A stretch of 64,000 nucleotides of DNA from Oscillospiraceae bacterium (lineage in GTDB: Bacteria > Bacillota > Clostridia > Oscillospirales > CAG-272). A program made the position numbers and the translations under genes. Shown in pieces: positions 560 to 13,556 of the stretch (its first letter is position 1; each line of letters starts with the position of its first letter). The stretch is from the NCBI GenBank assembly GCA_015065105.1, contig SVQZ01000006.1, positions 28,274-92,273 on the forward strand. The letters are read 5' to 3'. Under the pieces are notes generated by a model, which ran no database searches, had not been told where the DNA came from, and saw nothing but the letters and a program-made list of their open reading frames with translations.

Positions 560-1116
560 GTCTCAAATCCCTCCTTTACGAGAAATTCTTTAAGGGCGCA
601 TCTTGTTCGGTAGAGCCTGCTCTTTGCCTTCGATTCACTCATACGGCAATACTTGGCCGCATCACTCAGAGAATCGAGATAATAGTATCTTATTACAAAT
701 AGATCTCTTGTATCCTTCGGAAGAGTACGTAAAAATCTGCTTACAGCCTCAGCTAAAATTTTATCTTCTATATTCTTTTCGGGAGAAATGGAGGGGTCGG
801 CCGTATCCCCGAGCTCTTCAAGAGAAAGGGCATACTCGCTTCCTCTTCTTTTTTGAGTGTTTCTTTTTCTGAAAATGTCTATTGAAATGAAACGGGTCAG
901 CTTCCCGAGATATGCAGACAGAATATTAGGTCTGTTGGGCGGGATGGAGTTCCACGCGGCAAGATAGGTGTCGTTGACGCTTTCCTCCGAATCCTTTGGG
1001 TCTGACAAAATATTACAGGCTATCTTTAAAAGATATCTGCCGTATTTTTTGTCGGTCTCCTCTATGGCAGACTCGTTGCGTTCAAAGTACAGCTCAACTA
1101 TTTTGTTGTCCTCCAT
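556..1116 (-). CDS. RNA polymerase sigma-70 family ECF sigma factor
   Basis: 186 aa. Region 2-like segment (DSEESVNDTYLAAWNSIP) and region 4 HTH-like segment (DLFVIRYYYLDSLSDAAKYCRMSESKAKSRLYRTRCALKEFL) are typical of ECF sigma-24 proteins. Confidence 0.85.
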   Translation of the reverse strand: MEDNKIVELYFERNESAIEETDKKYGRYLLKIACNILSDPKDSEESVNDTYLAAWNSIPPNRPNILSAYLGKLTRFISIDIFRKRNTQKRRGSEYALSLEELGDTADPSISPEKNIEDKILAEAVSRFLRTLPKDTRDLFVIRYYYLDSLSDAAKYCRMSESKAKSRLYRTRCALKEFLVKEGFET

Positions 1117-1367
1117 TAACGTACCTCCTTTTCAGTCCTTTATAAAAACAAGAGTACGGCTGTCTTTTACGGGCTTCAGACAGAATACACGAAGTGAAAA
1201 TGTTTTCTCTCATATAAATATATCGTAAAATAATCATTTTGGTTTCGGTATAAACGAAAATTTTATATTATAGAACACCGCTTCAGTTAGGGTAGTTTTC
1301 GTAAGCGTCATTCCCGAACATCGCTTAAAGCCCAAAAAGCTGACGCTTTCGGGAAATAATAAATAAT

Positions 1368-1393
1368 CAAGGCGGTCCGAAAGGATCGCCTTG
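1368..1393 (-). terminator. rho-independent terminator downstream of glycerate kinase
   Basis: Hairpin caaggcgatcc-tttc-ggaccgccttg on the minus strand, 3 nt after the stop, followed by T-rich sequence. Confidence 0.6.
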
Positions 1394-1396
1394 GAA

Positions 1397-2500
1397 TTAT
1401 TTATAAGTCATAAGCTTCATTACGTTATACGCGGTCTTGTAAAGAGAGGGCTCGTTTACGAGCTTTGCTTCCTTAAAGGGCATAGCTCTTCTCTGGATGG
1501 AGAATACGGCTGTAACACCCATTTCGTAGCACGTTTCGCTTTCGTCAGCCGCACCGCAGAGAACGATAAGCGGAATACCCTTGGGCTTTGTACGGGCAGC
1601 GATTCCCGAAATAGCCTTACCGTCTATGCTCTGGGAGTCAAAGCGTCCTTCACCTGTGAAAACAATGTCGGTGTCCTCAAGCTCAAGATCGAAATTTTTT
1701 GTATCAAGCACAACGTCTATACCCCGGCGAAGCTCCGAACCGAGAAACGCAACCATTCCCGCACCGCAGCCGCCTGCCGCACCCGCGCCGGGTATGTTTG
1801 CAACGTCCTTGCCCAAATATTCCTTGACCTTTTCGCTTGCGTGACGCATTGCAGAGTCAAGAAGCGGTAAAACGCAGGACTTTGCACCCTTCTGAGGAGC
1901 AAACACAAAGGAGGCACCCTTTTCTCCGCAAAGGGGATTGTCGATATCGCACATGGTGGTTATCTCACACTCCTTGATGCGGGTGTCGAGGGCGGAAATG
2001 TCAATGCTTTCGATATCGGCGAGAGACAGCCCGGCGGGAATAAAGCAATTACCTTCTTTGTTCCTGAATCTGACTCCCAAAGCGGCAGCTATACCGCATC
2101 CCATATCATTTGTGGAGCTGCCTCCGAGGGCAACTATAAACTTACGGAAGCCTGCGTTGAGGGCAGCACGTATAAGCTGACCTACGCCGTATGTAGTGGC
2201 GGTTTCGGGCTCGAGACGCTTTGCCATGGGAAGACCTGCACAAGCGGCAAGCTCTATAACAGCTGTGTCACCCAAAACTCCGTAAAAGCTTTGGATCCTC
2301 TCATACTGCGAGCCTGTGGCGGTAACGCGGCGTCTCTGCGCTCCAAAGGCGTCTATCGTACCCTCGCCGCCGTCGGCAATGGGCAGAAGCAGGGTCTTGG
2401 CATCGGGTAAAACAGCCTTTACAGCCTTGTTTATCGTCTCAGCCACCTCTCGGGCGCAAAGAGTTCCTTTATATGAATCGGGGGCAATGATTATCTTCAT
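1397..2500 (-). CDS. glxK: glycerate kinase
   Basis: 367 aa. The N-terminus MKIIIAPDSYKGTL...LPIADGGEGT is the hallmark of the glycerate kinase family. Length is typical. Confidence 0.9.
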   Translation of the reverse strand: MKIIIAPDSYKGTLCAREVAETINKAVKAVLPDAKTLLLPIADGGEGTIDAFGAQRRRVTATGSQYERIQSFYGVLGDTAVIELAACAGLPMAKRLEPETATTYGVGQLIRAALNAGFRKFIVALGGSSTNDMGCGIAAALGVRFRNKEGNCFIPAGLSLADIESIDISALDTRIKECEITTMCDIDNPLCGEKGASFVFAPQKGAKSCVLPLLDSAMRHASEKVKEYLGKDVANIPGAGAAGGCGAGMVAFLGSELRRGIDVVLDTKNFDLELEDTDIVFTGEGRFDSQSIDGKAISGIAARTKPKGIPLIVLCGAADESETCYEMGVTAVFSIQRRAMPFKEAKLVNEPSLYKTAYNVMKLMTYK

Positions 2501-2606
2501 TTAGGGGAGATCCTTCCGTTTTTGAATAATATCTGTTGTTTTTGCATATACTACAATAACATTGTATCACAAAAAAGAATAATAATCAATAAAAAATAAA
2601 AAAAAC

Positions 2607-2635
2607 CTTGACAAAGGAAAAAGGGTATGCTATAA
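2607..2635 (+). promoter_or_regulatory. sigma-A type promoter of the tRNA pair
   Basis: TTGACA (2607-2612), 17-nt spacer, TATAAT (2630-2635), about 45 nt upstream of tRNA-Leu. Confidence 0.7.
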
Positions 2636-2677
2636 TAATTAGGCTAAAGACGACAGCAACTTGTTTTGAGCAAAAAC

Positions 2678-2766
2678 GCCGGAGTGGCGGAATAGGCAGA
2701 CGCCCGGGACTTAAAATCCCGTGGGATTAATTTCCCGTACCGGTTCGACCCCGGTTTCCGGCACCA
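2678..2766 (+). tRNA. tRNA-Leu (anticodon TAA), CCA encoded
   Basis: Manual cloverleaf. Acceptor GCCGGAG/TTCCGGC, anticodon stem CGGGA/TCCCG with loop CTTAAAA, long variable arm (GGGA..TCCC), T arm ACCGG-TTCGACC-CCGGT, and 3' ACCA. Confidence 0.85.
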
Positions 2767-2800
2767 TCAAGCCGGTCAAAAAGGTCGGCTTGATCAATAT

Positions 2801-2850
<50 letters not shown>

Positions 2851-2875
<25 letters not shown>

Positions 2876-3317
2876 GAAACGAAAAGACATCCAAACGGAT
2901 GTCTTTTTTCGTTTCTGATTTCAGAAACAGAATTTGTAATGCGGCCGACGGGTTCCCGGAGGGGAACGAGCCGAGCGCGTCCGGGGGACGATACAGTGAG
3001 GCGAGTGAGTGGCAGCGGTCTGTATTTTCAAGGCACCGCCGTGTGCCGCCGAAAATACAGGGAACCGCAACAGGACGCGGTTCGATCCCTGTCTCCGCAA
3101 CCAGAAACGAAAAGACATCCAAACGGATGTCTTTTTTCGTTTCTGATTTCAGAAACAGAATTTGTAATGCGGCCGACGGGTTCCCGGAGGGGAACGAGCC
3201 GAGCGCGTCCGGGGGACGATACAGCGAGGCGAGTGAGTGGCAGCGGTCTGTATTTTCAAGGCACCGCCGTGTGCCGCCGAAAATACAGGGAACCGCAACA
3301 GGACGCGGTTCGATCCC
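2851..3317 (+). repeat. 228-bp tandem direct repeat (2 full units plus 11 nt) starting inside tRNA-fMet
   Basis: Units 2851-3078 and 3079-3306 differ at one position that I could see (T at 2996 vs C at 3224). Each begins with GGTTCGATCCCTGTCTCCGCAACCA, the last 25 nt of tRNA-fMet, followed by the terminator and a GC-rich ~160-nt segment. A third start, GGTTCGATCCC, is at 3307-3317. Confidence 0.9.
2876..2915 (+). terminator. rho-independent terminator after tRNA-fMet (duplicated at 3104-3143)
   Basis: gaaacgaaaagacatcc-aaac-ggatgtcttttttcgtttc: long hairpin with an embedded T-run. Confidence 0.7.
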
Positions 3318-3399
3318 AGAGTATAATGATACTACAGTGGTGGAATCGCTTTAAATTATAGCTGAATAATATTTAGGGCATACTCTGTCTCCGCAACCA
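3318..3399 (+). other. 67-bp AT-rich insert with 7-bp terminal inverted repeats, then the rest of the third tRNA-3' core
   Basis: AGAGTAT (3318-3324) and ATACTCT (3380-3386) are reverse complements. CTGTCTCCGCAACCA follows at 3385-3399 and completes the core that began at 3307. Confidence 0.6.
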
Positions 3400-3401
3400 A
3401 A

Positions 3402-3437
3402 GGAAACCCTTGTAAATCAAGGGTTTCTTTCTTTTTT
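3402..3437 (+). terminator. rho-independent terminator after the third tRNA-3' core copy
   Basis: gaaaccctt-gtaaatc-aagggtttc followed by tttcttttttg. Confidence 0.6.
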
Positions 3438-3903
3438 GCTTTTCCCTGTTTGCCTGTTTAGACGGAAATAGACCTATCTTTTCTGCCGGTTTTTTGCCGG
3501 TTTCTACGGTGAATGGGACAAAAACCGTAGTAAATATTATAAAAAACAATGTGATGTCAACTGTGAGATTAGTAAACCTAGCCTCTTTTGACATCACATT
3601 ATTATTTCTCTATCTTTACATTACATCTCCCACCAAATATAAAAGACACAGAGTAGATTTGACAAAACTTTGGAAACCAGTTGAAGTTTCGTTATAGCAA
3701 GCCTTTTTGCATCTCTTTATCGTAAATATAGCATATTTTAGAATGGATAGTAATTGCTATTATGAGAGGCATAATGAATATTTTAAACAGTCTTGGTGTT
3801 TTACAACCAAGAGTGTTTGCTTTTTGCACAATACTATTCAGTATTTTCAAAAATAACCTTACATCATAGATACACAACATTTTTTCAACATTGTCGAAAC
3901 CTG

Positions 3904-3932
3904 TTGCATTTTACACTAAAATATGTTAAAAT
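3904..3932 (+). promoter_or_regulatory. candidate promoter of the two-gene islet operon
   Basis: TTGCAT (3904-3909), 17 nt, TAAAAT (3927-3932), about 58 nt upstream of the ATG at 3990. AT-rich context lowers specificity. Confidence 0.35.
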
Positions 3933-3989
3933 TATTTTGATATATAGATATATCGTACAAAAATATAAATTAGTTTATTGGAGGGTTCT

Positions 3990-6900
3990 ATGAAGGTCGA
4001 GCAATTATTGAACGATTTGTGTAAATTTTTGAAGATGTTGCCACATCCCATTTTGTTAGAGTGTATTGACAATATAACATTTATAAATAGAAACGAACGT
4101 CGCAAATATGAAAGAATTAAAAATTTGGATAATAAAATCGATGCTCTTGTTCAAGATGTACGTTTTAGAGTGAAATTAATAGAAAATATACATCAAAACT
4201 ATAATCAAAATATACAATTTTCTGGTGATGTTCTATATGAAGACTTGTTAGCTTCAATTAATTCGGAAAATTGCATGTCGGTAATTGTATATATATTATA
4301 TCTATGTTGTGACGGTGATTTTGACAAACAACATTTCAGTAAGTTTATCGAATCGGAACCGTTTCAAAAAACTATAAAAAAAGCTTGGGATACTCCCACT
4401 ATATTAGAAATTAACAGTGCAACAAATATAATCGAAAATACATCATTCAAGGAGAAAAAAACTATGTTTTGGTATCTTGGTAATATTGAATTAAGATCTA
4501 CATATTACAATTTCAAACCGCGATATATTTACGAAGAATTAGAAGGTGTAATATCAGAAATTCCCAACGATGTATTAAAAGAAGATTTTCCGGAACACGG
4601 GTCTATCAATCTCGGATACCAGCATTTAGGCGATCAAGCCCACGAATTCTTAAAATCGCTTAACATAGACAAAATTCATGATATATCTGATACTACACCT
4701 ATCACTAGTGTTTTCGCTATACATATCGAAAATAGTGATATAGAGAATAACGACAATGACAAAATTCGCAAAAAAATAGATTTGCAGAAAATCTATGAAA
4801 ACGGCATTTTACTATCCGACATAATAAAACCCATTTCCGACTTTAAAATGTATAAAATCGTTACTCCACAAGAAAATATAGTTGCTGATTCGTTTGCGGG
4901 AATAATTTTTGTAAACGAAGATCATTATTATCCAGAAGAATTAGTTCTATTAGAATGGGGAGAAAATCGCTTATTCGGTCCTTATAAGTTACAAGAACGT
5001 TCAATAGATGGCGAAAAATATATCCGTCCAGACAGTGGTAGCAATCAATATTTACTGGAATACTATTCCGAAGAAGATTATGAATCGTTTTTCTTTGAAA
5101 AAATTCCATATCTTCATGACTCTGTTTTTACAGACATAGCATTTTTAAAAAAATCTCCTAAATGCTTCGATGCCATTCCTTTAGAAATACTACTTTCAAA
5201 ACTTACTGAATCAGTAGATTTTAATTTAATTGAAAGCAATCCAGATGAATTTGTAAGATTGTATACAACTTCACCATTTTTGGGACAACTCCCCTCTGAA
5301 ATCCGTAAACAACGTATAGAAAGAGTTGAAGAAATCTTTAAAAGTACCGCACATTATGATGACAAAAAGAGGGATGTCCTAGAATCTCTTTTTGACAATT
5401 TAGGTGATAATGTTTTTAGTATTTTAGGCGATAAAATCAAAAATAGTTCTGAATTCAAAAAGCTCCAAGAACAAGCGACTATTTTACAAGAAACTAACAA
5501 CAAGCTGAAAAATGATAATGATAGTTTGACAGAAGAAAACAGGCGATTGCTTCAAGAAAATACCCAGCTTGAAGAAAATGCGAATCATAATGGCACATTT
5601 ATTGATTCGGAAAAAATCGAAGAGTTAGAACAAGAAATTGCTGAGTTAAGCGAAAAGGTAGCAATAATCGACGACTACGACTCATTATCTAAAGATTACG
5701 ATGAGTTAAGAAAAAAATATCAACAAGAAACTGATTTATATGATTCAAAAGTCATCGAAGTTAATGAAAAGAAGAATGAATTAAACGAACTCCAGGCAAA
5801 ATTCAAATCTTTTATTACAAATGAATTAAACGGATCTGATGTAACCAAAACTCTCAGAACTGCTTTCGATCCATACATATCCAATGCAATGATCGAAGCA
5901 GCAGGAAAATATCAATACGATTCAGAGAACGCATATTATAAGGAAATATCTGAAAAACTAAACAAATTAGATACTCCGAAATATGAAAAAGAAGATCTAA
6001 TTAATCGACTTGTTAAGCATGTTCAACTCTCACGAAAATACACTAAAAACGAAATCTTAAATATATATATCTGTCTCTCGCAAAATTTCTTAACGATTTT
6101 TTCAGGTGAACCCGGAACTGGTAAGACTTCAATTTGTAATATTCTTGCTGATAGCTTAGGATTAAACAATTTCGGTACTGAAAAAAATATATCTATGAAT
6201 AGATATATTCCCGTTTCGGTAGAACGCGGTTGGTCATCTAAAAGAGATTTGATAGGATACTTCAATCCTCTTACAAAAAAGTATGATAGAAATAATTCTA
6301 AAATATATGATGGATTGATGCTTTTGAACGAAGAAAGATCGAATTCTCGTTTTCCTTATGTCATTCTTCTCGACGAGGCAAATTTAAGTCCTATAGAGTA
6401 TTATTGGGCAGATTTTATGAGAGCAGCAGACCGCACGGGAGAAAAAAATTATGTAAATATCGGATTGAATGAAGATATCTATATACCCCAAACACTTCGT
6501 TTTCTCGCAACTATAAACAATGACCAAACAACTGAACGTTTATCGCCTCGTTTGGTGGACCGTGCGTGGATAATTAAACTTCCTAAAACAAGTGTACTAG
6601 AATCTGCAACATATATAGATAATCTTAATAATGATACTATCTTATGGAACGACATAGAAAACGCTTTCATTGTTTCTGAAAGCAAAGAAATGTCTTTGAA
6701 AAATTTGGCAGAGCAAATCTATAAACTCTTTGATGAACACAATCTTTCCGTAAGTCCTAGAGTTCAACAGAGCATAAAAAGATATGTTTGTGTTGCACAA
6801 GAAATAATGGAAGATGAAATAGGCGTTTCGAATAAAAAAGAAAAAGCACTTGATTTTGCTATTGTCCAGAAGTTATTACCCAAGATTAATGGCTATTATA

Positions 6901-7034
6901 AGGACTACGAACGTCTATTTACTTCACTCAAACAAATTTGTGATGAAAATAACTTAAAAATGACCAAAGAGGCGTTGATTTTCATGGAAGATTTTCAGCG
7001 TCAAAATATGGGTTATTGTCAGTATCTCGTATAA
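3990..7034 (+). CDS. McrB-like AAA+ NTPase with unknown N-terminal region and central coiled coil
   Basis: Start moved to ATG 3990, since GGAGG at 3980-3984 makes the track's TTG at 3978 less likely. Walker A GEPGTGKTS (6105-6131). Walker B ILLDEAN (D-E at 6372-6377). Motifs parallel to E. coli McrB: VSVERGWSSKRDLIGYFNP vs VQFHQSYSYEDFIQGYRP, and ATINNDQTTERLSPRLVDRAWII vs LMNTADRSLAVVDYALRRRFSF. Heptad-rich, charged, low-complexity segment KKLQEQATILQETNNKLKNDNDSLTEENRRLLQEN...ELNELQAKFKSF (~5450-5815). Confidence 0.75.
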   Translation: MKVEQLLNDLCKFLKMLPHPILLECIDNITFINRNERRKYERIKNLDNKIDALVQDVRFRVKLIENIHQNYNQNIQFSGDVLYEDLLASINSENCMSVIVYILYLCCDGDFDKQHFSKFIESEPFQKTIKKAWDTPTILEINSATNIIENTSFKEKKTMFWYLGNIELRSTYYNFKPRYIYEELEGVISEIPNDVLKEDFPEHGSINLGYQHLGDQAHEFLKSLNIDKIHDISDTTPITSVFAIHIENSDIENNDNDKIRKKIDLQKIYENGILLSDIIKPISDFKMYKIVTPQENIVADSFAGIIFVNEDHYYPEELVLLEWGENRLFGPYKLQERSIDGEKYIRPDSGSNQYLLEYYSEEDYESFFFEKIPYLHDSVFTDIAFLKKSPKCFDAIPLEILLSKLTESVDFNLIESNPDEFVRLYTTSPFLGQLPSEIRKQRIERVEEIFKSTAHYDDKKRDVLESLFDNLGDNVFSILGDKIKNSSEFKKLQEQATILQETNNKLKNDNDSLTEENRRLLQENTQLEENANHNGTFIDSEKIEELEQEIAELSEKVAIIDDYDSLSKDYDELRKKYQQETDLYDSKVIEVNEKKNELNELQAKFKSFITNELNGSDVTKTLRTAFDPYISNAMIEAAGKYQYDSENAYYKEISEKLNKLDTPKYEKEDLINRLVKHVQLSRKYTKNEILNIYICLSQNFLTIFSGEPGTGKTSICNILADSLGLNNFGTEKNISMNRYIPVSVERGWSSKRDLIGYFNPLTKKYDRNNSKIYDGLMLLNEERSNSRFPYVILLDEANLSPIEYYWADFMRAADRTGEKNYVNIGLNEDIYIPQTLRFLATINNDQTTERLSPRLVDRAWIIKLPKTSVLESATYIDNLNNDTILWNDIENAFIVSESKEMSLKNLAEQIYKLFDEHNLSVSPRVQQSIKRYVCVAQEIMEDEIGVSNKKEKALDFAIVQKLLPKINGYYKDYERLFTSLKQICDENNLKMTKEALIFMEDFQRQNMGYCQYLV

Positions 7035-7052
7035 TTAGGAAGATATACATAT

Positions 7053-8852
7053 ATGAACAATTATATTTTGCGGTTAGAAACCAATACATACAACAGAGAA
7101 ATTCCGTTGATCTTAAAAGATACAATCGATTTGTTTGACGATTATTTCGAACAACTTAACGGAGAGTATATACATAACGATTATGCATTTAAACTTTCTG
7201 TTATAGATTCGCAATGCAATAAAGTTCATATAGATAGCTTGTTCATAAACAATGAGATAGTTGATGATGAAAAATTTTTGTGTGGTTGTAAAACATTGCA
7301 TATTTTTTTGGAGTGTTTTGGTATTGTAAAAATCGAAGTTATTATTGAAGGTGTTTCATACATCACCCAAAATATAAGAATCATAATGAAAGAAAATGCA
7401 ATAAACAACAATATACTCAATATGATTGATTATATATATGATAATTGCGATGATTACTTGTATGAAGAACACAAGCACTCCAAAACGGCTACGGGAATAA
7501 ACCCCAACTCTAAAGTCTCTATTGATAGTAAATTGTCTATGATTAATGATATTTATGACACTTATATCAAAGGGTACAATATACTAAAATATAACGCACA
7601 GACAAGACTTATCAATACAAATAAAATTGGTGATTTTTCCGAATTACAATCTATTAATAGTACCACTATTGATTATATAGTTAACCATCCTGAAGAATTA
7701 CAGCCTGTTAGTTACAACTCAGGTATAGCGGTTAATAAGCAACACTATCAGCCTAGAAAAACATTGGTGCAATCCGTATCTTATTCTTCAGACATATATG
7801 AAAATCAGGTAATTGTTGGTTTTCTAAAATCTGTTATTAAAGATTTAGAAGATATCAAAACATTAATAGAATCGCACAAAAAACAAAATAGTGTTCCATA
7901 TAAACGAGATGGTTATATAGATTCTTCGTACTATATATACACTCGGAATGTAAAATTACTAAATGATTATTTGTTGAACATTGACGATGCTATTATTCGC
8001 TTTCAAAAATTATATTTAGAATTCAAAAAAATTTTGAATGTAAATGATATAAATATAATATCTCAACCAATGTATACAAATATATTTAGAAGAATTCTGC
8101 CGTATAACATCATTTTTGAAAAGATTTGCAATTGGTTTAATTGTGGTAATTACGATCTAACCAAATCTGACCTGTTACTCAGTTTTGTTTCTATAAGTAA
8201 AATATATGAGTATTTTTGCTTATTAAAACTCAACCGTGCTATAAATAATCGCGGTTATACGATGGAAAAAGGATATTCTTATAAATACGATGAAAACAAG
8301 TATTATCATAACACTACATATAACAACACATTTGAATATGCAAAAGATGGAATAAGAATCACATTGTATTATCAACCAATCATCTATGGAAAAACCAATG
8401 GACGAGAAAGACCAAATGGTATCATGTTATTTAGGAATACTACTATCAGCATAAAAGATCCTTCTATTCTTGCAATGCTAGATGATAGTGCACCACAACG
8501 TGGTAATAGTTATGTGCCTGACTATTTAATAAAAGTTAATAAAGAAAATAGCACTAATTACTACATTTTAGATGCCAAACATAGTACGGTTAATAATATT
8601 AAACGATATCAACTTCCACATTTGATATTCAAATACTTGTTTTCTATCAGTACTTACCCACAAGGTGAAAATATCAAAGGTATGTGTATTTTGTGCGGAA
8701 AAGATTCATTTAACTCAACAGAAAATCTTTATGATATTGCAAGTTCTTTTAATATCAAATTAAATCCCCAAGCATCCATTTGTCAAATCACCGGAACCGA
8801 TATTTCAAATGATAAAGATTTGGAAGAATATATTAAACAAATAGAGTTATAA
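7053..8852 (+). CDS. McrC-like protein with C-terminal PD-(D/E)xK nuclease motif
   Basis: 599 aa, 18 nt downstream of the ATPase gene. Motif ...KIYEYFCLLKL...YVPDYLIKVNKENSTNYYILDAKHS fits the E...PD...(D/E)xK layout (D at 8520-8522, D-A-K at 8571-8579). A large N-terminal region coupled to a McrB-like ATPase matches McrC/DUF2357-type partners. Confidence 0.7.
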   Translation: MNNYILRLETNTYNREIPLILKDTIDLFDDYFEQLNGEYIHNDYAFKLSVIDSQCNKVHIDSLFINNEIVDDEKFLCGCKTLHIFLECFGIVKIEVIIEGVSYITQNIRIIMKENAINNNILNMIDYIYDNCDDYLYEEHKHSKTATGINPNSKVSIDSKLSMINDIYDTYIKGYNILKYNAQTRLINTNKIGDFSELQSINSTTIDYIVNHPEELQPVSYNSGIAVNKQHYQPRKTLVQSVSYSSDIYENQVIVGFLKSVIKDLEDIKTLIESHKKQNSVPYKRDGYIDSSYYIYTRNVKLLNDYLLNIDDAIIRFQKLYLEFKKILNVNDINIISQPMYTNIFRRILPYNIIFEKICNWFNCGNYDLTKSDLLLSFVSISKIYEYFCLLKLNRAINNRGYTMEKGYSYKYDENKYYHNTTYNNTFEYAKDGIRITLYYQPIIYGKTNGRERPNGIMLFRNTTISIKDPSILAMLDDSAPQRGNSYVPDYLIKVNKENSTNYYILDAKHSTVNNIKRYQLPHLIFKYLFSISTYPQGENIKGMCILCGKDSFNSTENLYDIASSFNIKLNPQASICQITGTDISNDKDLEEYIKQIEL

Positions 8853-8895
8853 ATGTCGTTAAACTAGTATTTATAAATATATATTATAACTCTGA

Positions 8896-8930
8896 ACAGG
8901 TAATAGCCCGTGCTATTACCTGTATTTTTT
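8896..8930 (+). terminator. rho-independent terminator closing the islet operon
   Basis: acaggtaatagc-ccgt-gctattacctgt (12-bp perfect stem) followed by atttttt. Confidence 0.8.
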
Positions 8931-8949
8931 ATTTATAGGAGAAACATCT

Positions 8950-9072
8950 ATGAAAGAAACAAACATTACCGTGCTTATGGTAGAACCCGGCAAGAATCCT
9001 TTTATGACAAACGTAAAAAACAAACATTTGACACACAGGGAGAATACCGTTATAATATATACATCAAGATAA
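8950..9072 (+). pseudogene. 40-codon ORF resembling the N-terminus of DUF3846-type mobile-element proteins (probable gene remnant)
   Basis: My translation: MKETNITVLMVEPGKNPFMTNVKNKHLTHRENTVIIYTSR*, with AGGAG 6 nt upstream. From memory, ITVLMVEPGKNP matches the start of DUF3846 proteins (M.I.VL.VEPGK.P). The similarity is lost after ~22 aa. Confidence 0.3.
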
Positions 9073-9083
9073 CGGAGAACAAC

Positions 9084-9896
9084 ATGAAAAACATTATAGA
9101 AATAAAAGATTTTCTCTCTCCCGAGCTGGACGTATATGCACGGCTGAGCGAGGCTCAGCTTTTGAACAGAGAGTTTCCCGAAAAGGGTATGTTTATAGCA
9201 GAGAGTCCGAAGGTTATCGGACGTGCCCTTGATGCAGGCTATGAGGCGGTAAGCTGCCTTATGGAGAAAAGGCATATAGATGGCGAGGGTAAGGCCATTC
9301 TTGAGCGAATAGGGGGCGTACCCGTATTTTGTGCGGAATTTGATGTTTTGACTCAGCTCACGGGCTTCAAGCTTACAAGAGGTATGCTTTGTGCAATGAG
9401 ACGTAAGCCGCTGAAGAGCGTAAAAAAGGTGTGTGAGGGTAAAAGCAGAATAGTAATACTCGACAAGGTCATGAATCCGACAAACGTGGGCGCAATAATC
9501 CGCTCGGCGGCGGCTCTCGGAATGGATGCGGTGCTCCTTACTCCCGGATGCTCCGACCCCCTCTACCGACGTGCGGCAAGGGTGAGCATGGGTACGGTTT
9601 TTCAGATAGAATGGACTTTTCTGCCCGATGAAGGTTTTGATGAAATAAGTTCGCTCGGCTTCAAAACGGTAGCTATGGCATTAAAGGACGAATCTGTTTC
9701 GGTAAGCGATCCCGCTCTGAATGCCGAAGAGAAGCTTGCCGTTATTATGGGTACCGAAGGTGACGGGCTCTGTGACGAAACTATAGAGGGCTGTGACTAT
9801 ACCGTTAAAATACCGATGTATCACGGAGTTGATTCGCTGAACGTTGCCGCCGCATCTGCCGTGGCATTCTATGCGCTGGGCAATAAGGGGAAATGA
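9084..9896 (+). CDS. TrmH/SpoU family RNA 2'-O-methyltransferase
   Basis: Start reset to ATG 9084 (GGAGAA at 9074-9079). The sequence has a SpoU substrate-binding-like N-terminus and SPOUT motifs (NPTNVGAIIRSAAALG, VIMGTEGDGL, IPMYHGVDSLNVAAASAVAFY). Confidence 0.85.
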   Translation: MKNIIEIKDFLSPELDVYARLSEAQLLNREFPEKGMFIAESPKVIGRALDAGYEAVSCLMEKRHIDGEGKAILERIGGVPVFCAEFDVLTQLTGFKLTRGMLCAMRRKPLKSVKKVCEGKSRIVILDKVMNPTNVGAIIRSAAALGMDAVLLTPGCSDPLYRRAARVSMGTVFQIEWTFLPDEGFDEISSLGFKTVAMALKDESVSVSDPALNAEEKLAVIMGTEGDGLCDETIEGCDYTVKIPMYHGVDSLNVAAASAVAFYALGNKGK

Positions 9897-10033
9897 TCGG
9901 AGTTTTTTGATCGGGTATAAACCAGAGTAAAACCCCTTCTTTGGATACCGAAACGACCCGATTCTCCATAAATGAAAATTGTTACAGATCGAAACGATAC
10001 ACTTTAGATCCATAAGCCGGCGGAGGTTTTCAC

Positions 10034-11221
10034 ATGATTTCTTTTAACAGCCTATTTAATACCGATCCCGAGGCGGAGTATTTTCCCGAATATGATTGTA
10101 ACGGTGAGTACAAGGGAATAAAGGCATTGACCTACAGAGGCGCAGACTATAAGGGAAAGCCTACGAGAATATTTGCTCATATAGGATTCCCTGAGAGCGC
10201 GGAGGGCTCAGTTCCTGCCGTTGTTCTGATACACGGCGGAGGCGGCCACCCCGATGACGAATGGATCAAAAGATGGAATGCAGAGGGTTATGCCGCTATT
10301 GCCATGAGTACCGACGGTTATTTTCCCGCAAGACCTGTAAATCTGTATGAAGGTGCGGACGTCTCGGATATGGTTCGGGAGTTTTCGGATCCCTTTTACA
10401 AGGAGGGTCATACAATACTTCCCGCAAATATGCATATGTCCGATTCGGATATAACTGTTACCGACCAATGGATCTATCAGGCGGTCGCCGCAGTCATCCT
10501 TGCCGTCAATCTGTTACGGGCAGATGAAGGAGTGGACCCCTGTAAGATCGGAATATGCGGAATATCATGGGGAGCTGTAGTTGCTTCGGTTGCTGTAGGC
10601 TATGATCCCCGTTTCGCTTTTGCCGTACCGATCTACGGCTCGGGCTATCTTGCCTGCGGTCTTTCTGGTCTTGACAGGATCTTCAAGGCTCCCGGTGTGC
10701 AGAAATGGTTCCCCGAAAGAAGATTTCATAAGGTGAAGACTCCCGTCCTCTGGCTTTGCTGGAATGACGACTGCTGTTTTTCGATAAATTCAAATTCAAT
10801 GTCCTATCTTGATACAAAGGATAATAATATAAATACCCGTCTTTCAATGCTTCAGGATATGGGGCATTCCCACTCCTGTGCATATACCGCAAGGGAAAGC
10901 TATTGGTTCGCAAATGAGATCCTGTCGGGCAGAACTGTTCCCGAGGTTACGGCGGAATATATCGGAAATACCGTTAGGTATTCGTGCGGTGTAAAGCCCG
11001 GATCCGTGCGTCTCTTTTACATAACAGAGGAAATGAGCTATACGCGCCGCGAAAAATACGGCTTGCATAACACCTTTATGGAACAGGAGTGGCAAATAAC
11101 CTACCTTGACCCCGAACACACCCGGGCAAAGCTTCCCGGCAACGCAAAAGGGAAGTATATAGAATTTACCCTTGAAAACGGAATAGTGCTTACAACACCT
11201 TACAGTGAGTTCAAAGGGTGA
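10034..11221 (+). CDS. alpha/beta-fold serine hydrolase (dienelactone hydrolase / esterase-like)
   Basis: 395 aa. VVLIHGGGGHPD oxyanion-type segment and nucleophile elbow GISWGA. No signal peptide is evident. Confidence 0.6.
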   Translation: MISFNSLFNTDPEAEYFPEYDCNGEYKGIKALTYRGADYKGKPTRIFAHIGFPESAEGSVPAVVLIHGGGGHPDDEWIKRWNAEGYAAIAMSTDGYFPARPVNLYEGADVSDMVREFSDPFYKEGHTILPANMHMSDSDITVTDQWIYQAVAAVILAVNLLRADEGVDPCKIGICGISWGAVVASVAVGYDPRFAFAVPIYGSGYLACGLSGLDRIFKAPGVQKWFPERRFHKVKTPVLWLCWNDDCCFSINSNSMSYLDTKDNNINTRLSMLQDMGHSHSCAYTARESYWFANEILSGRTVPEVTAEYIGNTVRYSCGVKPGSVRLFYITEEMSYTRREKYGLHNTFMEQEWQITYLDPEHTRAKLPGNAKGKYIEFTLENGIVLTTPYSEFKG

Positions 11222-11245
11222 TTTGTGCAGCAGCATTAACCGTTC

Positions 11246-11274
11246 TTGACAGATAAACCTGCAAATGCTATAAT
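11246..11274 (+). promoter_or_regulatory. consensus sigma-A promoter
   Basis: TTGACA (11246-11251), 17 nt, TATAAT (11269-11274). About 110-nt leader before the 529-aa ORF. Confidence 0.65.
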
Positions 11275-11389
11275 TTTTCAAAAGGTGATAAAATAATTTC
11301 GTCTGTTTTTAATATTTAAGAAACCGCTTAGTATTATAGTTCGGGACGGCACCCGCATTAAAATATCTGAAAGGAGCTTATGAAAACAT

Positions 11390-12979
11390 ATGTCAGAAAT
11401 ATACAGTTATCATACCTTTATACTTCCCTTTATATGGAACGTTGAAGGTATAAGTTCAAGGGACGTTAATGCCTTTCCGAAATGTTTTGAGAATAATCCG
11501 AATTGGATATCTACCAATTTAGAGGAAGCTCACAGAATAGGGGATAACGGTAATATAATTTCGGATGAGGACGCTTCTTTGCTGTATGCGGAATATCAGT
11601 ATTTTAATCCTGCCGCACGTAATGCCATATACGGCTTTGATTCGGAGATCGTTCACAATTATTGCTTTAATCCGAAGTTCGTCCGTAATAAAGGCAGATA
11701 CATAATAGAGAAAAAAGGCATTAAGTATGTTCTTATGGTCAATGCCATTCGTCTGAAGATATATAATACCGGAGTTGCGCTGTTTATACTTGAATGCGAG
11801 AATCTTTCTTCTCCCGAGTTTGCATATCAGAACAATATGTCTGCAGTAAAGAATATCAACGATTACGGAAGACGTATCAGCCTTCCTTTTATTCCCGAGG
11901 ATCCCGACATTTCTGTCTGTGCAGACAGCTTGACTCTTGAAATAGACGGAGTGGGTTCATTTACCGAGAATATGAGGAGCTTTATAGAGGCTACGAGAAA
12001 AAAGAAGGATATATTCGACAAGGTTTCCTTAACTCATATGAGCGATTTTGTGAAGAAGATTTTGGAATACGGAGGTGATTACAGCTTCAGCTCCAATTAT
12101 TCAAAGGCTTTGCAAAATAAAAAAACATTCTATATATATCCGGCACTTGATGACAGAATGTTTACATTCTGCGTTGTATGTAACGGCGAAGCTGTGGCTC
12201 ATTACACGAGAACTGCGAAAAACGGAAAGTATATGTTTGAAACCGATGATAATATGTCAATGGACCTCTATGAGTTTGCTTTTGTTGATCCTGCCGGGGA
12301 ATGCTCGTGCCGGGATTTTAAAATGAGGAGCGATCTTTTGGAAAAGCATATTTACCGCCGTTGGCTTTCTTACGGAACACTGTTTACCGTTGTGAATCAC
12401 AGCTTCATGACCGTTAGCAGTTTTAAACCCACTTGTAATTCAGCATTGACACAGTATTTTCAGATATGCTGTCTTAGCTTGGCACAGCGTGCATCGATAA
12501 TAAACTTTCAGCGCGAAGCAACCGCACTGTCACGTACTATCGAAAAGCAGGGTAAAACGATCCGCGTAAAACTGATCACAAGGATCCTGGACCTTCAGGA
12601 AAGGTTTATTGCCTTTCAGAATCAGCTCTGTTTTACCGAAATATCCTCGCAGGAGCAAGCGATAGATCTTTATGCTATGATCAAGAAAGCTTTCTTTATC
12701 GAAAAGGAAAGCGATGCCTTGGCAAACCATCTTGAAAATTTATATAATGCGGCTAATACCAATATCGATTTCAGCCTGAATAAATACGGTACTGCCATTG
12801 CCATTCTGGCAATACTTATGTCTCTTATAAGCTTCTGTGCCGATTTTTCCGGATTTACGAGTCTGTTTATCAAGGACGGGCTGAAGGGCTTACCCCTGTT
12901 ATGGGCTATACTCGGCTTCGGATGCGTTGCGGCGGCATTGGCTTCACTTAGTTTACTTATCTACAAAAGGAGAAAATAG
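11390..12979 (+). CDS. hypothetical membrane protein with CorA-like C-terminal architecture
   Basis: 529 aa. Large soluble N-terminal part, long helical segment, then two C-terminal TM helices (TAIAILAILMSLISFCADF, LPLLWAILGFGCVAAALASLSLLIY) and a basic end (KRRK). There is no GMN motif. G+C is lower than the flanks (35% on one sampled line). Confidence 0.5.
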   Translation: MSEIYSYHTFILPFIWNVEGISSRDVNAFPKCFENNPNWISTNLEEAHRIGDNGNIISDEDASLLYAEYQYFNPAARNAIYGFDSEIVHNYCFNPKFVRNKGRYIIEKKGIKYVLMVNAIRLKIYNTGVALFILECENLSSPEFAYQNNMSAVKNINDYGRRISLPFIPEDPDISVCADSLTLEIDGVGSFTENMRSFIEATRKKKDIFDKVSLTHMSDFVKKILEYGGDYSFSSNYSKALQNKKTFYIYPALDDRMFTFCVVCNGEAVAHYTRTAKNGKYMFETDDNMSMDLYEFAFVDPAGECSCRDFKMRSDLLEKHIYRRWLSYGTLFTVVNHSFMTVSSFKPTCNSALTQYFQICCLSLAQRASIINFQREATALSRTIEKQGKTIRVKLITRILDLQERFIAFQNQLCFTEISSQEQAIDLYAMIKKAFFIEKESDALANHLENLYNAANTNIDFSLNKYGTAIAILAILMSLISFCADFSGFTSLFIKDGLKGLPLLWAILGFGCVAAALASLSLLIYKRRK

Positions 12980-12983
12980 AAGG

Positions 12984-13535
12984 ATGAGACCCGAAAAAAT
13001 ATGCAGAGAAATGAATGTGATCCATTACGTTTTATTCTTCTTTCGGAATAATCCTGAGTTTCGTACCAGATATTATCATGAATTTATCAAGTGGGTGGGA
13101 TATGACAATTGGGATGAAGTGCTCCCCGAGATCCGAAATTCATGGGAATCGGCACGAAACAGCTTTGATAAGCTGCACGGACTTGCAAGAGCTTTCAAAG
13201 AATTTAAAAACCCGCAGGACATCTTGATTCCCCGTGAGTCTGCACCCGACGAAGCTCTTGTTGATTCGATGAAAGAGGCATCGGAGGTTTTCAGCGAGCT
13301 TTTAAAGCTTGAGGCCCGCATACCCGATAATTGTAAGCCTGAGGGTATAAAATGCCTTAAATCGCTTATAGAAATATATGCAAGCGGTAAAAATGACAGT
13401 GTAAAGAATGAGCTTTGTAAATATTTTGATGACAGAATTGATGTTTGTAAAGAATTAAGAGGTCTCGAAATCGAAAAGGAAAAAGCCGAAATAGAATCAA
13501 TAAAACACAAAGCTTCCGAGGAGAAAAAGGAATAA
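12984..13535 (+). CDS. hypothetical protein
   Basis: Start reset to ATG 12984 (AAAGGAGAA upstream), 5 nt after the preceding stop. 183 aa, helical/charged. No motif recognised. Confidence 0.5.
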   Translation: MRPEKICREMNVIHYVLFFFRNNPEFRTRYYHEFIKWVGYDNWDEVLPEIRNSWESARNSFDKLHGLARAFKEFKNPQDILIPRESAPDEALVDSMKEASEVFSELLKLEARIPDNCKPEGIKCLKSLIEIYASGKNDSVKNELCKYFDDRIDVCKELRGLEIEKEKAEIESIKHKASEEKKE

Positions 13536-13556
13536 TTGAGCGAAGAAATACGAAAA

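What the first reader, a model, noticed from the sequence alone, without database searches (positions are those of the whole stretch)
3990..8852. Divergent McrBC-like / coiled-coil nuclease (CoCoNuT-like) two-gene module on an AT-rich islet
Seen in the sequence:
- Two tightly linked genes (18-nt gap) are the only long ORFs in a ~5.5 kb segment whose composition (~30% G+C on sampled lines) is foreign to the flanks.
- Gene 1 ends in an AAA+ domain. Its Walker A (GEPGTGKTS), Walker B (ILLDEAN), inter-motif segment and NND...R..DR segment line up with E. coli McrB.
- Gene 2 ends in an E...PD...DAK PD-(D/E)xK motif, as in McrC.

Established knowledge: McrB-type NTPases paired with McrC-type nucleases form type IV (modification-dependent) restriction systems. 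Variants with coiled coils fused to the McrB homologue have been described as CoCoNuTs.

Unusual here:
- The ~120-aa coiled coil sits between an unrecognisable ~480-aa N-terminal region and the NTPase.
- The McrB guanine-specificity signature (NTAD) appears as NND, shifted by one residue, so nucleotide preference is uncertain.
- No helicase, methyltransferase or other accessory gene accompanies the pair.

Inference: a compact, possibly undescribed subtype of McrBC-like defence.
Basis: partly seen in the sequence, partly recalled or inferred. Interest (0 to 1): 0.85.

Follow-up and report, generated by a model that had tools for sequence, protein, structure and literature searches.

The report
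Two-gene coiled-coil McrBC-like defence module
This AT-rich islet carries a two-gene relative of the McrBC restriction system from the recently described "CoCoNuT" branch, ordinary in its motor and nuclease but with an N-terminal sensor region of about 480 residues that matches no known domain.

Summary

Gene 1 is a McrB-family NTPase:
- hhalign against proteins named McrB: 99.5%, E 5e-23.
- hhalign against published Type I-A CoCoNuT CnuB fragments: 99.8%.
- Best solved relatives whose match spans the NTPase core: E. coli and T. gammatolerans McrB.

Its "shifted" NND is the NxD signature that defines the CoCoNuT branch, so it supports the classification and is not an oddity.

Gene 2 is a McrC homologue: DUF2357 plus PD-(D/E)xK (both above Pfam cut-offs), invariant D490/D507/K509, and McrC as the only significant Foldseek hit.

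Two-gene CoCoNuTs (Types I-A and I-C) are already described, so the missing helicase or methylase is not unusual. The partner has the Type I-C layout (beta-sandwich, McrC-N, PD-DxK).

What differs is the gene 1 N-terminus: a helical domain plus a beta-rich domain. No CSD, YTH or any other match was found by Pfam, profile comparison or Foldseek. It occurs only in front of this NTPase (about 180 clusters among 1.84 billion proteins), mainly in gut and rumen Clostridia.

The pair is conserved in 78 of 80 loci with changing neighbours. Verdict: new variant of a known, still largely uncharacterised kind.

The parts
3431..8925 (.). AT-rich islet (26-34% G+C) holding the two-gene unit. It lies between the tRNA-Met repeat scars and the SpoU methylase promoter.
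   Evidence: Composition profile; terminator-like hairpins at both ends. No empty-site relative was found, so the exact borders are inferred.
3990..7034 (+). Gene 1: CnuB/McrB-like protein of 1014 aa. Order of regions: N-terminal module, coiled coil, NxD AAA+ NTPase, C-terminal helical region.
3990..4379 (+). Gene 1 aa 1-130: all-helical N-domain with a conserved basic helix (N33, R34, R38, K39). Absent from the roughly 850-aa members of the family.
   Evidence: AF2 model, pLDDT mostly 85-93; conserved columns; profile hits of about 860-aa proteins start at profile position 156
4467..5174 (+). Gene 1 aa 160-395: beta-rich core of the N-terminal module. Conserved residues include G164, Y173-N174-F175, P201, N254, G330-P331 and D394. 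No detectable relative outside this family.
   Evidence: AF2 model; Foldseek against PDB and BFVD has no hit better than E 0.14; conservation in 44 diverse members; 98 of 99 long hits carry the same NTPase
5181..5444 (+). Gene 1 aa 398-485: helical connector between the beta-rich domain and the coiled coil (conserved L401, R442).
   Evidence: AF2 secondary structure; conservation
5445..5825 (+). Gene 1 aa 486-612: coiled-coil segment. Its length is conserved but its sequence is not.
   Evidence: 0 Pro and 1 Gly; length 95-154 aa in 43 of 44 members. Only coiled-coil proteins match this stretch.
6027..6599 (+). Gene 1 aa about 680-870: AAA+ NTPase core. Walker A is at 6105-6131, Walker B D795/E796 at 6372-6377, NxD (N843-N844-D845) at 6516-6524, and R854/D857/R858 follow downstream.
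6600..7031 (+). Gene 1 aa 871-1014: C-terminal helical region with the conserved motif ALDFAIVQKLLPKINGY. It is shared with other NxD-branch McrB homologues.
   Evidence: Aligned over its length with McrB-named proteins
7053..8852 (+). Gene 2: CnuC/McrC-like protein of 599 aa.
   Evidence: Pfam DUF2357 30.5 bits (cut-off 23.3) and PDDEXK_7 31.7 bits (cut-off 22.1). Foldseek top hits are McrC 7vsr_M (E 2.8e-4) and 6hz4_N (E 4e-3).
7053..7391 (+). Gene 2 aa 1-113: all-beta N-terminal domain. It is consistent with the Ig-like beta-sandwich described for McrC homologues of the NxD branch.
   Evidence: Nine predicted strands in the AF2 model. No significant structural match to a named Ig fold, so this is consistent only. 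Description in PMC11090510.
7407..8252 (+). Gene 2 aa 119-400: helical DUF2357 (McrC N-terminal) domain with long helices (249-278, 292-328). It is the presumed stalk that engages the NTPase ring.
   Evidence: Pfam; AF2; hhalign against Type I-A CnuC fragments 87.9%, E 3e-6
8259..8792 (+). Gene 2 aa 403-580: PD-(D/E)xK nuclease domain. Catalytic candidates are D490 (8520-8522) and D507-A-K509 (8571-8579), with E386 (8208-8210) in the preceding helix.
   Evidence: Invariant columns in 32 homologues; aligned with E. coli McrC D244/D257/K259
8896..8933 (+). Intrinsic-terminator-like hairpin plus T-run that closes the two-gene unit.
3400..3440 (+). Terminator-like hairpin after the last tRNA-Met 3'-end copy. 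It insulates the unit from upstream transcription.
2801..3399 (+). tRNA-Met (2801-2875) followed by repeated copies of its 3' end at 2861-2875, 3089-3103 and 3385-3399. These are candidate scars of integration next to the islet.

Best explanation
The pair is a self-contained, horizontally moving McrBC-family (type IV-like) defence module of the NxD/coiled-coil (CoCoNuT) branch.

Gene 1 is the CnuB/McrB-like motor. Its AAA+ NTPase core carries Walker A, Walker B and the NxD sensor motif. A coiled coil of about 125 aa and a family-specific N-terminal module (helical plus beta-rich) precede the core.

Gene 2 is the CnuC/McrC-like partner. It has an N-terminal beta domain, a helical DUF2357 stalk and an intact PD-(D/E)xK nuclease.

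Inferred mechanism, by analogy with solved E. coli McrBC (6HZ4, 7VSR):
- The NTPase forms a ring.
- The DUF2357 stalk of gene 2 inserts into the ring and switches on NTP hydrolysis through contacts that include the Asp of NxD.
- The N-terminal module selects the target.
- The nuclease of gene 2 cuts the target.
- No methyltransferase is present, so the system must recognise a feature of the invader and does not protect self by modification.

Shown here: homology, motifs, domain order, strict gene pairing and mobility. Inferred: ring assembly, activation, nucleotide preference, the target (DNA or RNA, modified or not) and defence itself.
For: NTPase identity:
- BLASTP against E. coli McrB aligns Walker A, Walker B and the N-motif (E 1e-3). 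The family profile against E. coli McrB gives E 2.6e-5.
- The family-only profile against 12 proteins named McrB by NCBI, UniRef or JGI gives probability 99.5%, E 4.8e-23 over 291 columns.
- Against published Type I-A CnuB fragments the result is 99.8%, E 3e-28. BLASTP against Dorea RGK31155.1 gives E 6e-21.
- In the PDB profile search, E. coli McrB (6hz4_A, E 8e-8) and T. gammatolerans McrB (6ut3, 2.6e-5) are the best hits whose alignment spans the NTPase core. Midasin scores higher overall (E 7.6e-10), but as the sum of weak P-loop matches over its repeated AAA modules.
- The NxD motif is nearly invariant across the family, as F(L/V)ATINxD(Q/H)TTE. It is the defining signature of this branch.

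Partner identity:
- Two Pfam domains score above their gathering cut-offs.
- The AF2 model has pLDDT 81.9. McrC chains are the only hits with E below 0.01, one of them below 1e-3.
- The catalytic D/D-x-K residues are invariant.

Pairing and independence:
- A gene 2 homologue lies directly downstream in 78 of 80 loci from species-representative genomes, usually 11-18 nt away. The other two contigs end there. No third gene is shared by more than 14 of the 80 loci.
- Neighbours differ completely between contexts.

Mobility:
- The islet is AT-rich and sits next to tRNA-Met scars.
- A 59%-identical pair rides an integrase/Mob_Pre element.
- Relatives occur on 315 plasmids.

Precedent for function: a Type II CoCoNuT-like locus protects Pseudomonas against RNA phages and one DNA phage (bioRxiv 10.64898/2026.04.06.716636).
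Against: - There is no experimental evidence for this family or for any Type I CoCoNuT.
- The gene 2 profile against the single E. coli McrC sequence is weak (probability 19.6%). Foldseek TM-scores are low (0.17-0.38) because the domains are arranged differently.
- PADLOC recognises gene 1 only as the candidate PDC-M26A and does not recognise gene 2.
- No NxD McrB homologue had been characterised biochemically as of the 2024 eLife paper. The nucleotide used is therefore unknown.
- The residue after NxD is Q or H, not the usual E or D.
- The N-terminal module has no recognisable nucleic-acid-binding fold. Target choice is a guess.
- The borders and mode of acquisition of the islet are not established: no integrase lies in the islet, no downstream repeat was found and no empty site was found.
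Confidence: 0.8

Rival explanations
1. It is simply a Type I-C CoCoNuT as already described (CSD-YTH-CoCo-McrB plus IG-McrC_N-PD-DxK). On this reading its CSD-like and YTH-like domains have drifted beyond what my tools can see, so nothing about it is new.
For: - It has two genes. The coiled coil sits between an N-terminal region and the NxD NTPase. The partner has the Type I-C layout: beta domain, DUF2357 and PD-DxK, with no zinc ribbon and no coiled-coil insert.
- Pfam also fails to find CSD or YTH in the Klebsiella and Acinetobacter plasmid relatives, so a negative Pfam result is weak evidence.
- The stretch VLLEW-x4-LFGPYKLQ-x7-KYIRP (aa 318-347) has a strand pattern loosely like a cold-shock barrel. 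This is my own reading.
Against: - Foldseek of a confident model (pLDDT 82.5) found no CSD, OB, YTH, EVE or PUA structure among 237 PDB matches. The best was E 0.42, probability at most 0.07.
- Profile comparison with the N-termini of published Type I-A CnuB gave probability below 1%.
- The module is about 480 aa, roughly twice the size of CSD plus YTH. It starts with a 130-aa helical domain that is not part of the described architecture.
- N-terminal motifs of this family are absent from the part of the paper's sequence table that is held, which covers Type I-A only.
Confidence: 0.2
2. The module is an abortive-infection or RNA-targeting system and not a DNA restriction enzyme. As proposed for CoCoNuTs in general, it would sense infection and cut RNA or cause dormancy.
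For: - Bell et al. predict RNA targeting for all CoCoNuTs.
- A Type II-like locus protects against RNA phages.
- The N-terminal module is not one of the known modified-DNA readers such as DUF3578, SRA, EVE or Mrr-N.
Against: - The RNA prediction rests on CSD, YTH, SmpB-like and HEPN domains. None of these was detected here.
- The only nuclease is an intact PD-(D/E)xK of the McrC type, whose characterised members cut DNA.
Confidence: 0.2
3. The NTPase is a housekeeping MoxR-like or dynein-like AAA+ protein and the pairing with a nuclease-like gene is incidental.
For: - Pfam gives only generic AAA, AAA_22 and AAA_5 hits for gene 1, at or below their cut-offs.
- One relative is labelled "MoxR-like ATPase" by JGI (P0186).
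- Midasin tops the PDB profile list through summed weak P-loop matches.
Against: - Profile comparisons with McrB-named proteins and CnuB score 99.5-99.8% over about 200-290 columns, including the NxD motif and the C-terminal region.
- The partner is a McrC homologue, present in 78 of 80 loci.
- No vWA or other MoxR partner is present.
- The context is mobile and variable.
Confidence: 0.02

Closest known systems
Type I-C CoCoNuT (CnuB: CSD-YTH-CoCo-McrB; CnuC: IG-McrC_N-PD-DxK), Bell et al., eLife 2024 (PMC11090510)
   Same: - Two genes only, with the NTPase gene first.
- NxD signature.
- Coiled coil directly upstream of the NTPase.
- Partner built as N-terminal beta domain, DUF2357 and an active PD-DxK, with no zinc ribbon and no coiled-coil or CSD insert.
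   Different: - The region upstream of the coiled coil is about 480 aa: a helical domain plus a beta-rich domain, with no detectable CSD or YTH.
- The residue after NxD is Q or H, not the usual E or D.
Type I-A CoCoNuT (for example E. coli APL73567.1/APL73566.1, Dorea formicigenerans RGK31155.1/RGK31156.1)
   Same: - Two-gene system with an NxD NTPase and a coiled coil.
- NTPase clearly homologous: BLASTP E 6e-21, hhalign 99.8%.
- DUF2357 homologous: 87.9%.
   Different: - There is no helical insert between Walker B and NxD. The spacing is 48 aa here against 84 in the Dorea protein.
- The partner lacks the coiled-coil/CSD insert and the zinc ribbon.
- The N-terminus is unrelated.
Canonical McrBC of E. 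coli K-12 (structures 6HZ4, 7VSR) and T. gammatolerans McrB (6UT3)
   Same: - AAA+ NTPase with Walker A and B and an Asn sensor motif.
- McrC partner with a DUF2357 stalk and a D...D-x-K nuclease.
- NTPase gene upstream of the nuclease gene.
- No cognate methyltransferase.
   Different: - NxD here, NxxD there.
- About 23% identity over the core only.
- The N-terminal DUF3578 or YTH modified-DNA reader is replaced by an unrelated 480-aa module plus a coiled coil.
- The partner has an extra N-terminal beta domain.
- GTP use and modified-DNA dependence are unproven here.
Unnamed plasmid pairs in Gammaproteobacteria: Klebsiella IncF plasmids with a 628-aa "AAA family ATPase" plus a 603-aa "hypothetical protein"; Acinetobacter indicus pB18-1 with 894-aa and 899-aa proteins
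   Same: - NTPase 31-35% identical over about 320-370 aa.
- NxD motif and a coiled coil.
- The Klebsiella partner aligns with gene 2 over 530 aa (E 1e-13), including the PD...D-x-K motif.
- They cluster together in a rough NJ tree.
   Different: - Their N-termini are different and shorter.
- They are found in another phylum and on plasmids.
- They are not annotated as defence genes in the records.
PADLOC candidate system PDC-M26 (protein A)
   Same: Gene 1 aa 500-811 matches the PDC-M26A profile at E 6.6e-25.
   Different: - Only the coiled coil and NTPase match.
- Gene 2 matches no PADLOC model.
- No paper in the searchable library mentions PDC-M26.

Membership tests
McrBC family (type IV restriction, McrB NTPase plus McrC nuclease) | [quoted passage not shown] | tested here: met
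   GEPGTGKTS (aa 706-714) and ILLDEAN (aa 792-798), invariant in 20 homologues
McrBC family (type IV restriction, McrB NTPase plus McrC nuclease) | McrB signature Nx(x)D motif at the sensor-1 position | tested here: met
   N843-N844-D845 aligns with N333..D336 of E. coli McrB. It is the NxD variant and is nearly invariant in 44 diverse members.
McrBC family (type IV restriction, McrB NTPase plus McrC nuclease) | Profile-level homology of the NTPase to recognised McrB proteins | tested here: met
   hhalign 99.5%, E 4.8e-23 against McrB-named proteins. PDB profile search: 6hz4_A E 8e-8, 6ut3_A E 2.6e-5.
McrBC family (type IV restriction, McrB NTPase plus McrC nuclease) | Adjacent partner with a McrC N-terminal (DUF2357) domain and a PD-(D/E)xK nuclease | tested here: met
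   Pfam PF09823 and PF04411 score above their cut-offs. Foldseek top hits are McrC 7vsr_M and 6hz4_N. The partner is present in 78 of 80 related loci.
McrBC family (type IV restriction, McrB NTPase plus McrC nuclease) | Intact nuclease catalytic residues (D ... D/E-x-K) | tested here: met
   D490, D507 and K509 are invariant in 32 homologues and align with E. coli McrC D244/D257/K259.
McrBC family (type IV restriction, McrB NTPase plus McrC nuclease) | Hexameric GTPase stimulated by McrC; cleavage that depends on modified DNA | not testable with these tools
   Needs biochemistry. No NxD-type McrB had been characterised as of PMC11090510.
CoCoNuT systems (Bell et al. 2024) | NxD (not NxxD) NTPase signature | tested here: met
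   definition
CoCoNuT systems (Bell et al. 2024) | Long coiled coil fused to the NTPase (or encoded separately, as in Type I-B) | tested here: met
   aa 486-612 has 0 Pro and 1 Gly. Only coiled-coil proteins match it, and its length is conserved.
CoCoNuT systems (Bell et al. 2024) | NTPase falls inside the CoCoNuT clade of the McrB tree | tested here: inconclusive
   A rough NJ tree (183 columns) groups the family with other coiled-coil-fused NTPases, including the helicase-associated P0057 (bootstrap 100). This group is apart from the DUF3578/methylase-associated NxD group. The Type I-A reference, however, fell with that other group, and no I-B, I-C, II or III references were available.
CoCoNuT systems (Bell et al. 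2024) | Predicted RNA-binding or translation-related domains (CSD, YTH, SmpB-like, Hsp70-like) in the system | tested here: not met
   None were found by Pfam on 44 members, by Foldseek against PDB or BFVD, or by hhalign against Type I-A CnuB N-termini.
CoCoNuT systems (Bell et al. 2024) | Ig-like beta-sandwich at the N-terminus of the McrC homologue | tested here: inconclusive
   The AF2 model has nine strands in aa 4-113 and no helix longer than 4 residues. No significant match to a named Ig or FnIII structure was found; the best was E 0.3-2.
CoCoNuT Type I-A | Helical insert in the NTPase between Walker B and NxD; CnuC with a coiled-coil/CSD insert and a zinc ribbon | tested here: not met
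   The spacing is 48 aa, against 84 in Dorea Type I-A CnuB and 54 in E. coli McrB. Gene 2 is 599 aa with no such insert.
CoCoNuT Type I-C | CnuB = CSD-YTH-CoCo-McrB; CnuC = IG-McrC_N-PD-DxK; two genes only | tested here: inconclusive
   The two-gene composition and the CnuC layout are met. CSD and YTH were not detected in CnuB.
MoxR / dynein-related AAA_5 housekeeping ATPases | MoxR-type AAA+ protein with a vWA or other chaperone-client partner in a stable housekeeping context | tested here: not met
   AAA_5 scores E 0.14 for gene 1. The partner is a McrC homologue. The context varies and is mobile.

The most novel reading that the evidence does not exclude
The N-terminal module of gene 1 is a previously undescribed sensor fold. 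It consists of a helical domain with a conserved basic helix, plus a beta-rich domain with conserved G164, YNF173-175, P201, N254, GP330-331 and D394.

It evolved only in front of this NxD NTPase. It would give the system a target specificity unlike any characterised type IV enzyme. Examples would be a nucleic-acid feature or phage component other than the modified bases read by DUF3578, SRA, EVE or YTH domains.

On this reading the family is a distinct CoCoNuT subtype of gut and rumen Clostridia.
Probability: 0.3. Interest if true: 0.6.

Novelty: new variant of a known kind. Interest (0 to 1): 0.4.

Why it matters
CoCoNuTs were defined purely by computation in 2024. Within the literature searched here, the only experimental support is a seven-gene Type II-like locus in a 2026 preprint. 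No NxD-type McrB homologue had been studied biochemically as of the 2024 paper.

A compact two-gene member with an intact nuclease would be a convenient system for several open questions:
- what the NxD motif does to nucleotide use and to activation by McrC;
- what the coiled coil is for;
- what such systems recognise.

It is widespread in gut and rumen Clostridia, with 292 loci among species-representative genomes. Its sensor region matches nothing known and could point to a new recognition principle.

In practical terms, current annotation labels these genes "hypothetical" or "AAA family ATPase", including a related pair on many Klebsiella plasmids. Such defence modules are therefore being missed.

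Tried and rejected
- Single-sequence and family-profile HMMER searches of gene 1 and gene 2 against PDB sequences found nothing useful. McrB appeared only after the profile was broadened with distant NxD relatives.
- NCBIfam gave no meaningful hit for either protein.
- Megablast of the islet against E. coli genomes found no match.
- Rfam found only the two tRNAs in 1-16000. The tRNA-like repeats are not a tmRNA or any other known RNA.
- Foldseek of the N-terminal model against PDB and BFVD gave only chance-level beta-sandwich hits.
- A profile of the N-terminus against PDB sequences gave only a weak GCN4 basic-region match, E 0.26.
- Pfam on 44 diverse family members found nothing recurrent upstream of the NTPase.
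- I looked for a third conserved gene in 80 loci. None was found.
- I looked for an empty integration site through the exact SpoU methylase protein. All 22 contigs carry the islet.
- I looked for a copy of the tRNA 3' end downstream of the islet. None was found.
- Small ORFs in the islet arms (3373-3597, 3692-3880, 3793-3993, 8950-9072) have no Pfam match. I dropped the idea that the 40-aa ORF is a remnant of a mobile-element gene.
- The Type I-C reference sequences could not be retrieved from the paper's supplement, because only the Type I-A sheet is held.
- "PDC-M26" appears in no searchable paper.

Full report
**1. Observation**

The window holds two same-strand genes. Gene 1 runs from ATG 3990 to the stop at 7034 (1014 aa) and has GGAGG 6 nt upstream. 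Gene 2 runs from 7053 to 8852 (599 aa). The gap is 18 nt.

They are the only long ORFs in a stretch of 26-34% G+C (about 3500-9000). Most of the flanks are about 45-56%. Terminator-like hairpins lie on both sides of the unit, at 3400-3430 and 8896-8923. A perfect TTGACA-17-TATAAT at 9028-9056 precedes the next gene, a SpoU methylase.

- Walker A, aa 706-714.
- Walker B D795/E796, nt 6372-6377.
- NND, aa 843-845.
- R854, D857 and R858.
- In gene 2: E386, P489-D490 and D507-A-K509, nt 8571-8579.

All are invariant or nearly so in alignments of 20 homologues (gene 1) and 32 homologues (gene 2).

**2. Gene 1 is a McrB-family NTPase of the NxD branch**

Library searches alone were uninformative. 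Pfam gave only generic AAA hits, NCBIfam gave nothing, and PDB sequence searches gave nothing.

Pairwise and profile comparisons gave a clear answer:
- BLASTP against E. coli McrB aligns Walker A, Walker B and the Asn motif (E 1e-3).
- The family profile against E. coli McrB gives E 2.6e-5.
- The family-only profile of the C-terminal 395 aa, against twelve proteins that NCBI, UniRef or JGI call McrB, gives probability 99.5% and E 4.8e-23 over 291 columns. Several of these proteins carry the DUF3578 reader domain.
- Fragments of published Type I-A CoCoNuT CnuB proteins give hhalign 99.8%, E 3e-28. BLASTP against Dorea RGK31155.1 gives E 6e-21. The fragments come from Supplementary file 3 of PMC11090510.
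- With a broadened profile, E. coli McrB (6hz4_A, E 8e-8) and T. gammatolerans McrB (6ut3, 2.6e-5) are the best solved-structure hits whose alignment spans the NTPase core. Midasin scores higher overall (E 7.6e-10), but as the sum of weak P-loop matches over its repeated AAA modules.

The family consensus is F(L/V)ATINxD(Q/H)TTE. The position after D is Q or H, not the usual E or D.

**3. Gene 2 is a McrC homologue with an intact nuclease**

- DUF2357 (PF09823) and PDDEXK_7 (PF04411) both score above their gathering cut-offs.
- The AlphaFold2 model has pLDDT 81.9. It shows an all-beta domain (aa 4-113), a long-helix domain (119-400) and an alpha/beta nuclease domain (403-580).
- In Foldseek against the PDB, the only hits with E below 0.01 are McrC chains: 7vsr_M (E 2.8e-4, probability 1.0) and 6hz4_N (E 4e-3).
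- D490, D507 and K509 align with E. coli McrC D244, D257 and K259 and are invariant.
- The layout (beta domain, McrC-N, PD-DxK) is what the CoCoNuT paper gives for Type I-B and I-C CnuC.

**4. Coiled coil**

Residues 486-612 contain no Pro and one Gly, and are rich in E/K/L/N/Q. Only coiled-coil proteins match this stretch (Spc110, keratins, myosin, ZapB, JetC, LmuB). The segment is 95-154 aa long in 43 of 44 diverse members, although its sequence is not conserved.

**5. The N-terminal region**

The AF2 model of aa 1-490 has pLDDT 82.5. It shows:
- a helical domain, aa 1-130;
- a disordered linker, aa 135-158;
- a beta-rich domain, aa 160-395;
- a helical connector, aa 398-485.

No test found a relative:
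- Foldseek found nothing significant in the PDB (best E 0.42) or in BFVD (best E 0.14).
- Pfam found nothing recurrent in 44 members.
- Profile comparison with the N-termini of Type I-A CnuB gave probability below 1%.

A profile search of 1.84 billion cluster representatives returned only 179 proteins with E of 0.001 or better. Of the 99 hits of at least 600 aa, 98 carry the same NxD NTPase.

Three length classes exist:
- about 1000 aa, with the helical domain;
- about 850 aa, starting at the beta-rich domain;
- 1100-1430 aa, with other N-terminal extensions.

The beta-rich domain is therefore the family-specific core. By position it is the presumed target sensor. This role is inferred.

**6. 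The pair is the unit, and it moves**

- Among species-representative genomes, 292 loci encode a relative. Most are in Ruminococcus, Oscillospiraceae, Lachnospiraceae and Clostridium. A few are in Alistipes, Fibrobacteria, Comamonas and Mucispirillum.
- In 78 of the best 80 loci a gene 2 homologue follows directly, typically 11-18 nt downstream. The other two contigs end there.
- No flanking gene is shared by more than 14 of the 80 loci.
- Contexts differ: tRNA-Met/SpoU in the window, an integrase-DUF6076-AAA_25-Mob_Pre element, a neighbourhood with dynamin-like GTPases, an HsdM_N fragment and radical-SAM genes, and ArsC/YgjV.
- The NTPase also matches 315 plasmids at 31-35% identity.
- A Klebsiella IncF pair (628 + 603 aa) aligns with gene 2 over 530 aa.

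In the window the islet lies just after tRNA-Met, whose 3' end is repeated three times. The islet holds no integrase. I found no downstream repeat and no empty site.

**7. Classification**

- Type I-A and I-C CoCoNuTs consist of CnuB and CnuC only, so the missing accessory genes are expected.
- Type I-A is excluded. There is no helical insert between Walker B and NxD: the spacing is 48 aa against 84 in the Dorea protein. The partner has no coiled-coil/CSD insert or zinc ribbon.
- The architecture matches Type I-C except for the N-terminus.
- A rough NJ tree groups the family (bootstrap 92) with the Acinetobacter and Klebsiella plasmid proteins. It also groups with a helicase-associated coiled-coil NTPase whose locus looks like Type II/III (P0057, L011). 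This whole group has bootstrap 100 and is apart from the DUF3578/methylase-associated NxD group.
- Without Type I-B, I-C, II or III references the placement stays provisional.

**8. Mechanism**

Shown here: homology, motifs, domain order, pairing and mobility.

Inferred from E. coli McrBC structures and from Bell et al.:
- The NTPase assembles into a ring.
- The DUF2357 stalk of gene 2 activates hydrolysis through the NxD Asp.
- The N-terminal module selects the target.
- The PD-DxK domain cleaves it.

DNA or RNA, modified or not, is open. The RNA-binding domains behind the RNA prediction for CoCoNuTs are not detected here. A Type II-like locus has been shown to protect against RNA phages and one DNA phage.

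**9. Verdict**

The finding is real, and its main interpretation is right. Two of the three features called unusual are textbook features of the CoCoNuT branch. The third, the N-terminal module, has no detectable relative outside this family and is specific to it.

I rate the finding a new variant of a known and still largely uncharacterised kind, with interest 0.4.

Noticed in passing
window 2851-3306: A perfect 228-bp tandem duplication (2851-3078 and 3079-3306) begins with the last 25 nt of tRNA-Met. Contig L008, which carries the identical gene 1, has exactly 228 bp less between glycerate kinase and gene 1. The copy number therefore varies between assemblies or strains.
   Followed up: partly
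window 3307-3399: A third copy of the tRNA-Met 3' end is split in two. GGTTCGATCCC lies at 3307-3318 and CTGTCTCCGCAACCA at 3385-3399, with about 66 bp of AT-rich sequence between them. A terminator hairpin follows at 3400-3430. It looks like nested integration scars, but no integrase is nearby.
   Followed up: partly
L004-L007 (protein P0042), compared with L002 (P0011): At least 24 contigs carry a variant of the 59%-identical homologue with an exact in-frame deletion of aa 346-611. The deletion removes the end of the N-terminal module and the whole coiled coil. The variant sits in the same integrase/Mob_Pre element, and in several of these loci the integrase gene is also split.
   Followed up: partly
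L002 1944-12883: In Oscillospiraceae MAGs the homologous pair is cargo of a small integrative mobilisable element: tyrosine integrase, DUF6076, a 70-aa gene, an AAA_25 protein and a Mob_Pre relaxase. The element is inserted between a mechanosensitive channel gene and a GH25/Big_2 gene.
   Followed up: partly
L100 4176-7870 (Klebsiella pneumoniae plasmid NZ_CP054404.1); 163 Klebsiella plasmid records: Many Klebsiella IncF plasmids carry a related NxD coiled-coil NTPase (628 aa, annotated "AAA family ATPase") plus a 603-aa "hypothetical protein". The latter aligns with gene 2 over 530 aa. Pfam detects no domain in that partner, so the pair is probably missed by defence annotation.
   Followed up: partly
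window 4086-4106 (gene 1 aa 33-39): A conserved basic helix (N33, R34, R38, K39; motif NRxERRKYE) in the N-terminal helical domain gives weak hits to the GCN4 basic region (E 0.26). It may be a nucleic-acid contact, but the score is at chance level.
   Followed up: no
window 9028-9056: A perfect sigma-70 consensus (TTGACA, 17 nt, TATAAT) lies 28 nt upstream of the SpoU/TrmH methylase start at 9084. It sits just past the islet terminator.
   Followed up: no
L021, L041, L042 and 11 further Ruminococcus loci, downstream of the pair: In 14 of 80 loci the same three genes follow the pair on the same strand: a 796-aa protein, a 200-aa membrane protein and a 399-aa coiled protein. This is probably lineage synteny and not part of the system. 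Their functions were not checked.
   Followed up: no
window 11000-13535: A second region of lowered G+C (0.35-0.43) holds two ORFs with no Pfam match (11390-12979, 529 aa; 12927-13535). It lies next to an LPXTG pilin/sortase cluster (13838-16348).
   Followed up: no
L011 615-13060: The distant relative P0057 (827 aa, coiled coil plus NxD NTPase) lies in a five-gene array. The array has a UPF1-like helicase (AAA_11/AAA_12), a 739-aa protein, a 1127-aa partner and a 321-aa protein. This resembles a Type II/III CoCoNuT. It was used here only as a comparison point.
   Followed up: no
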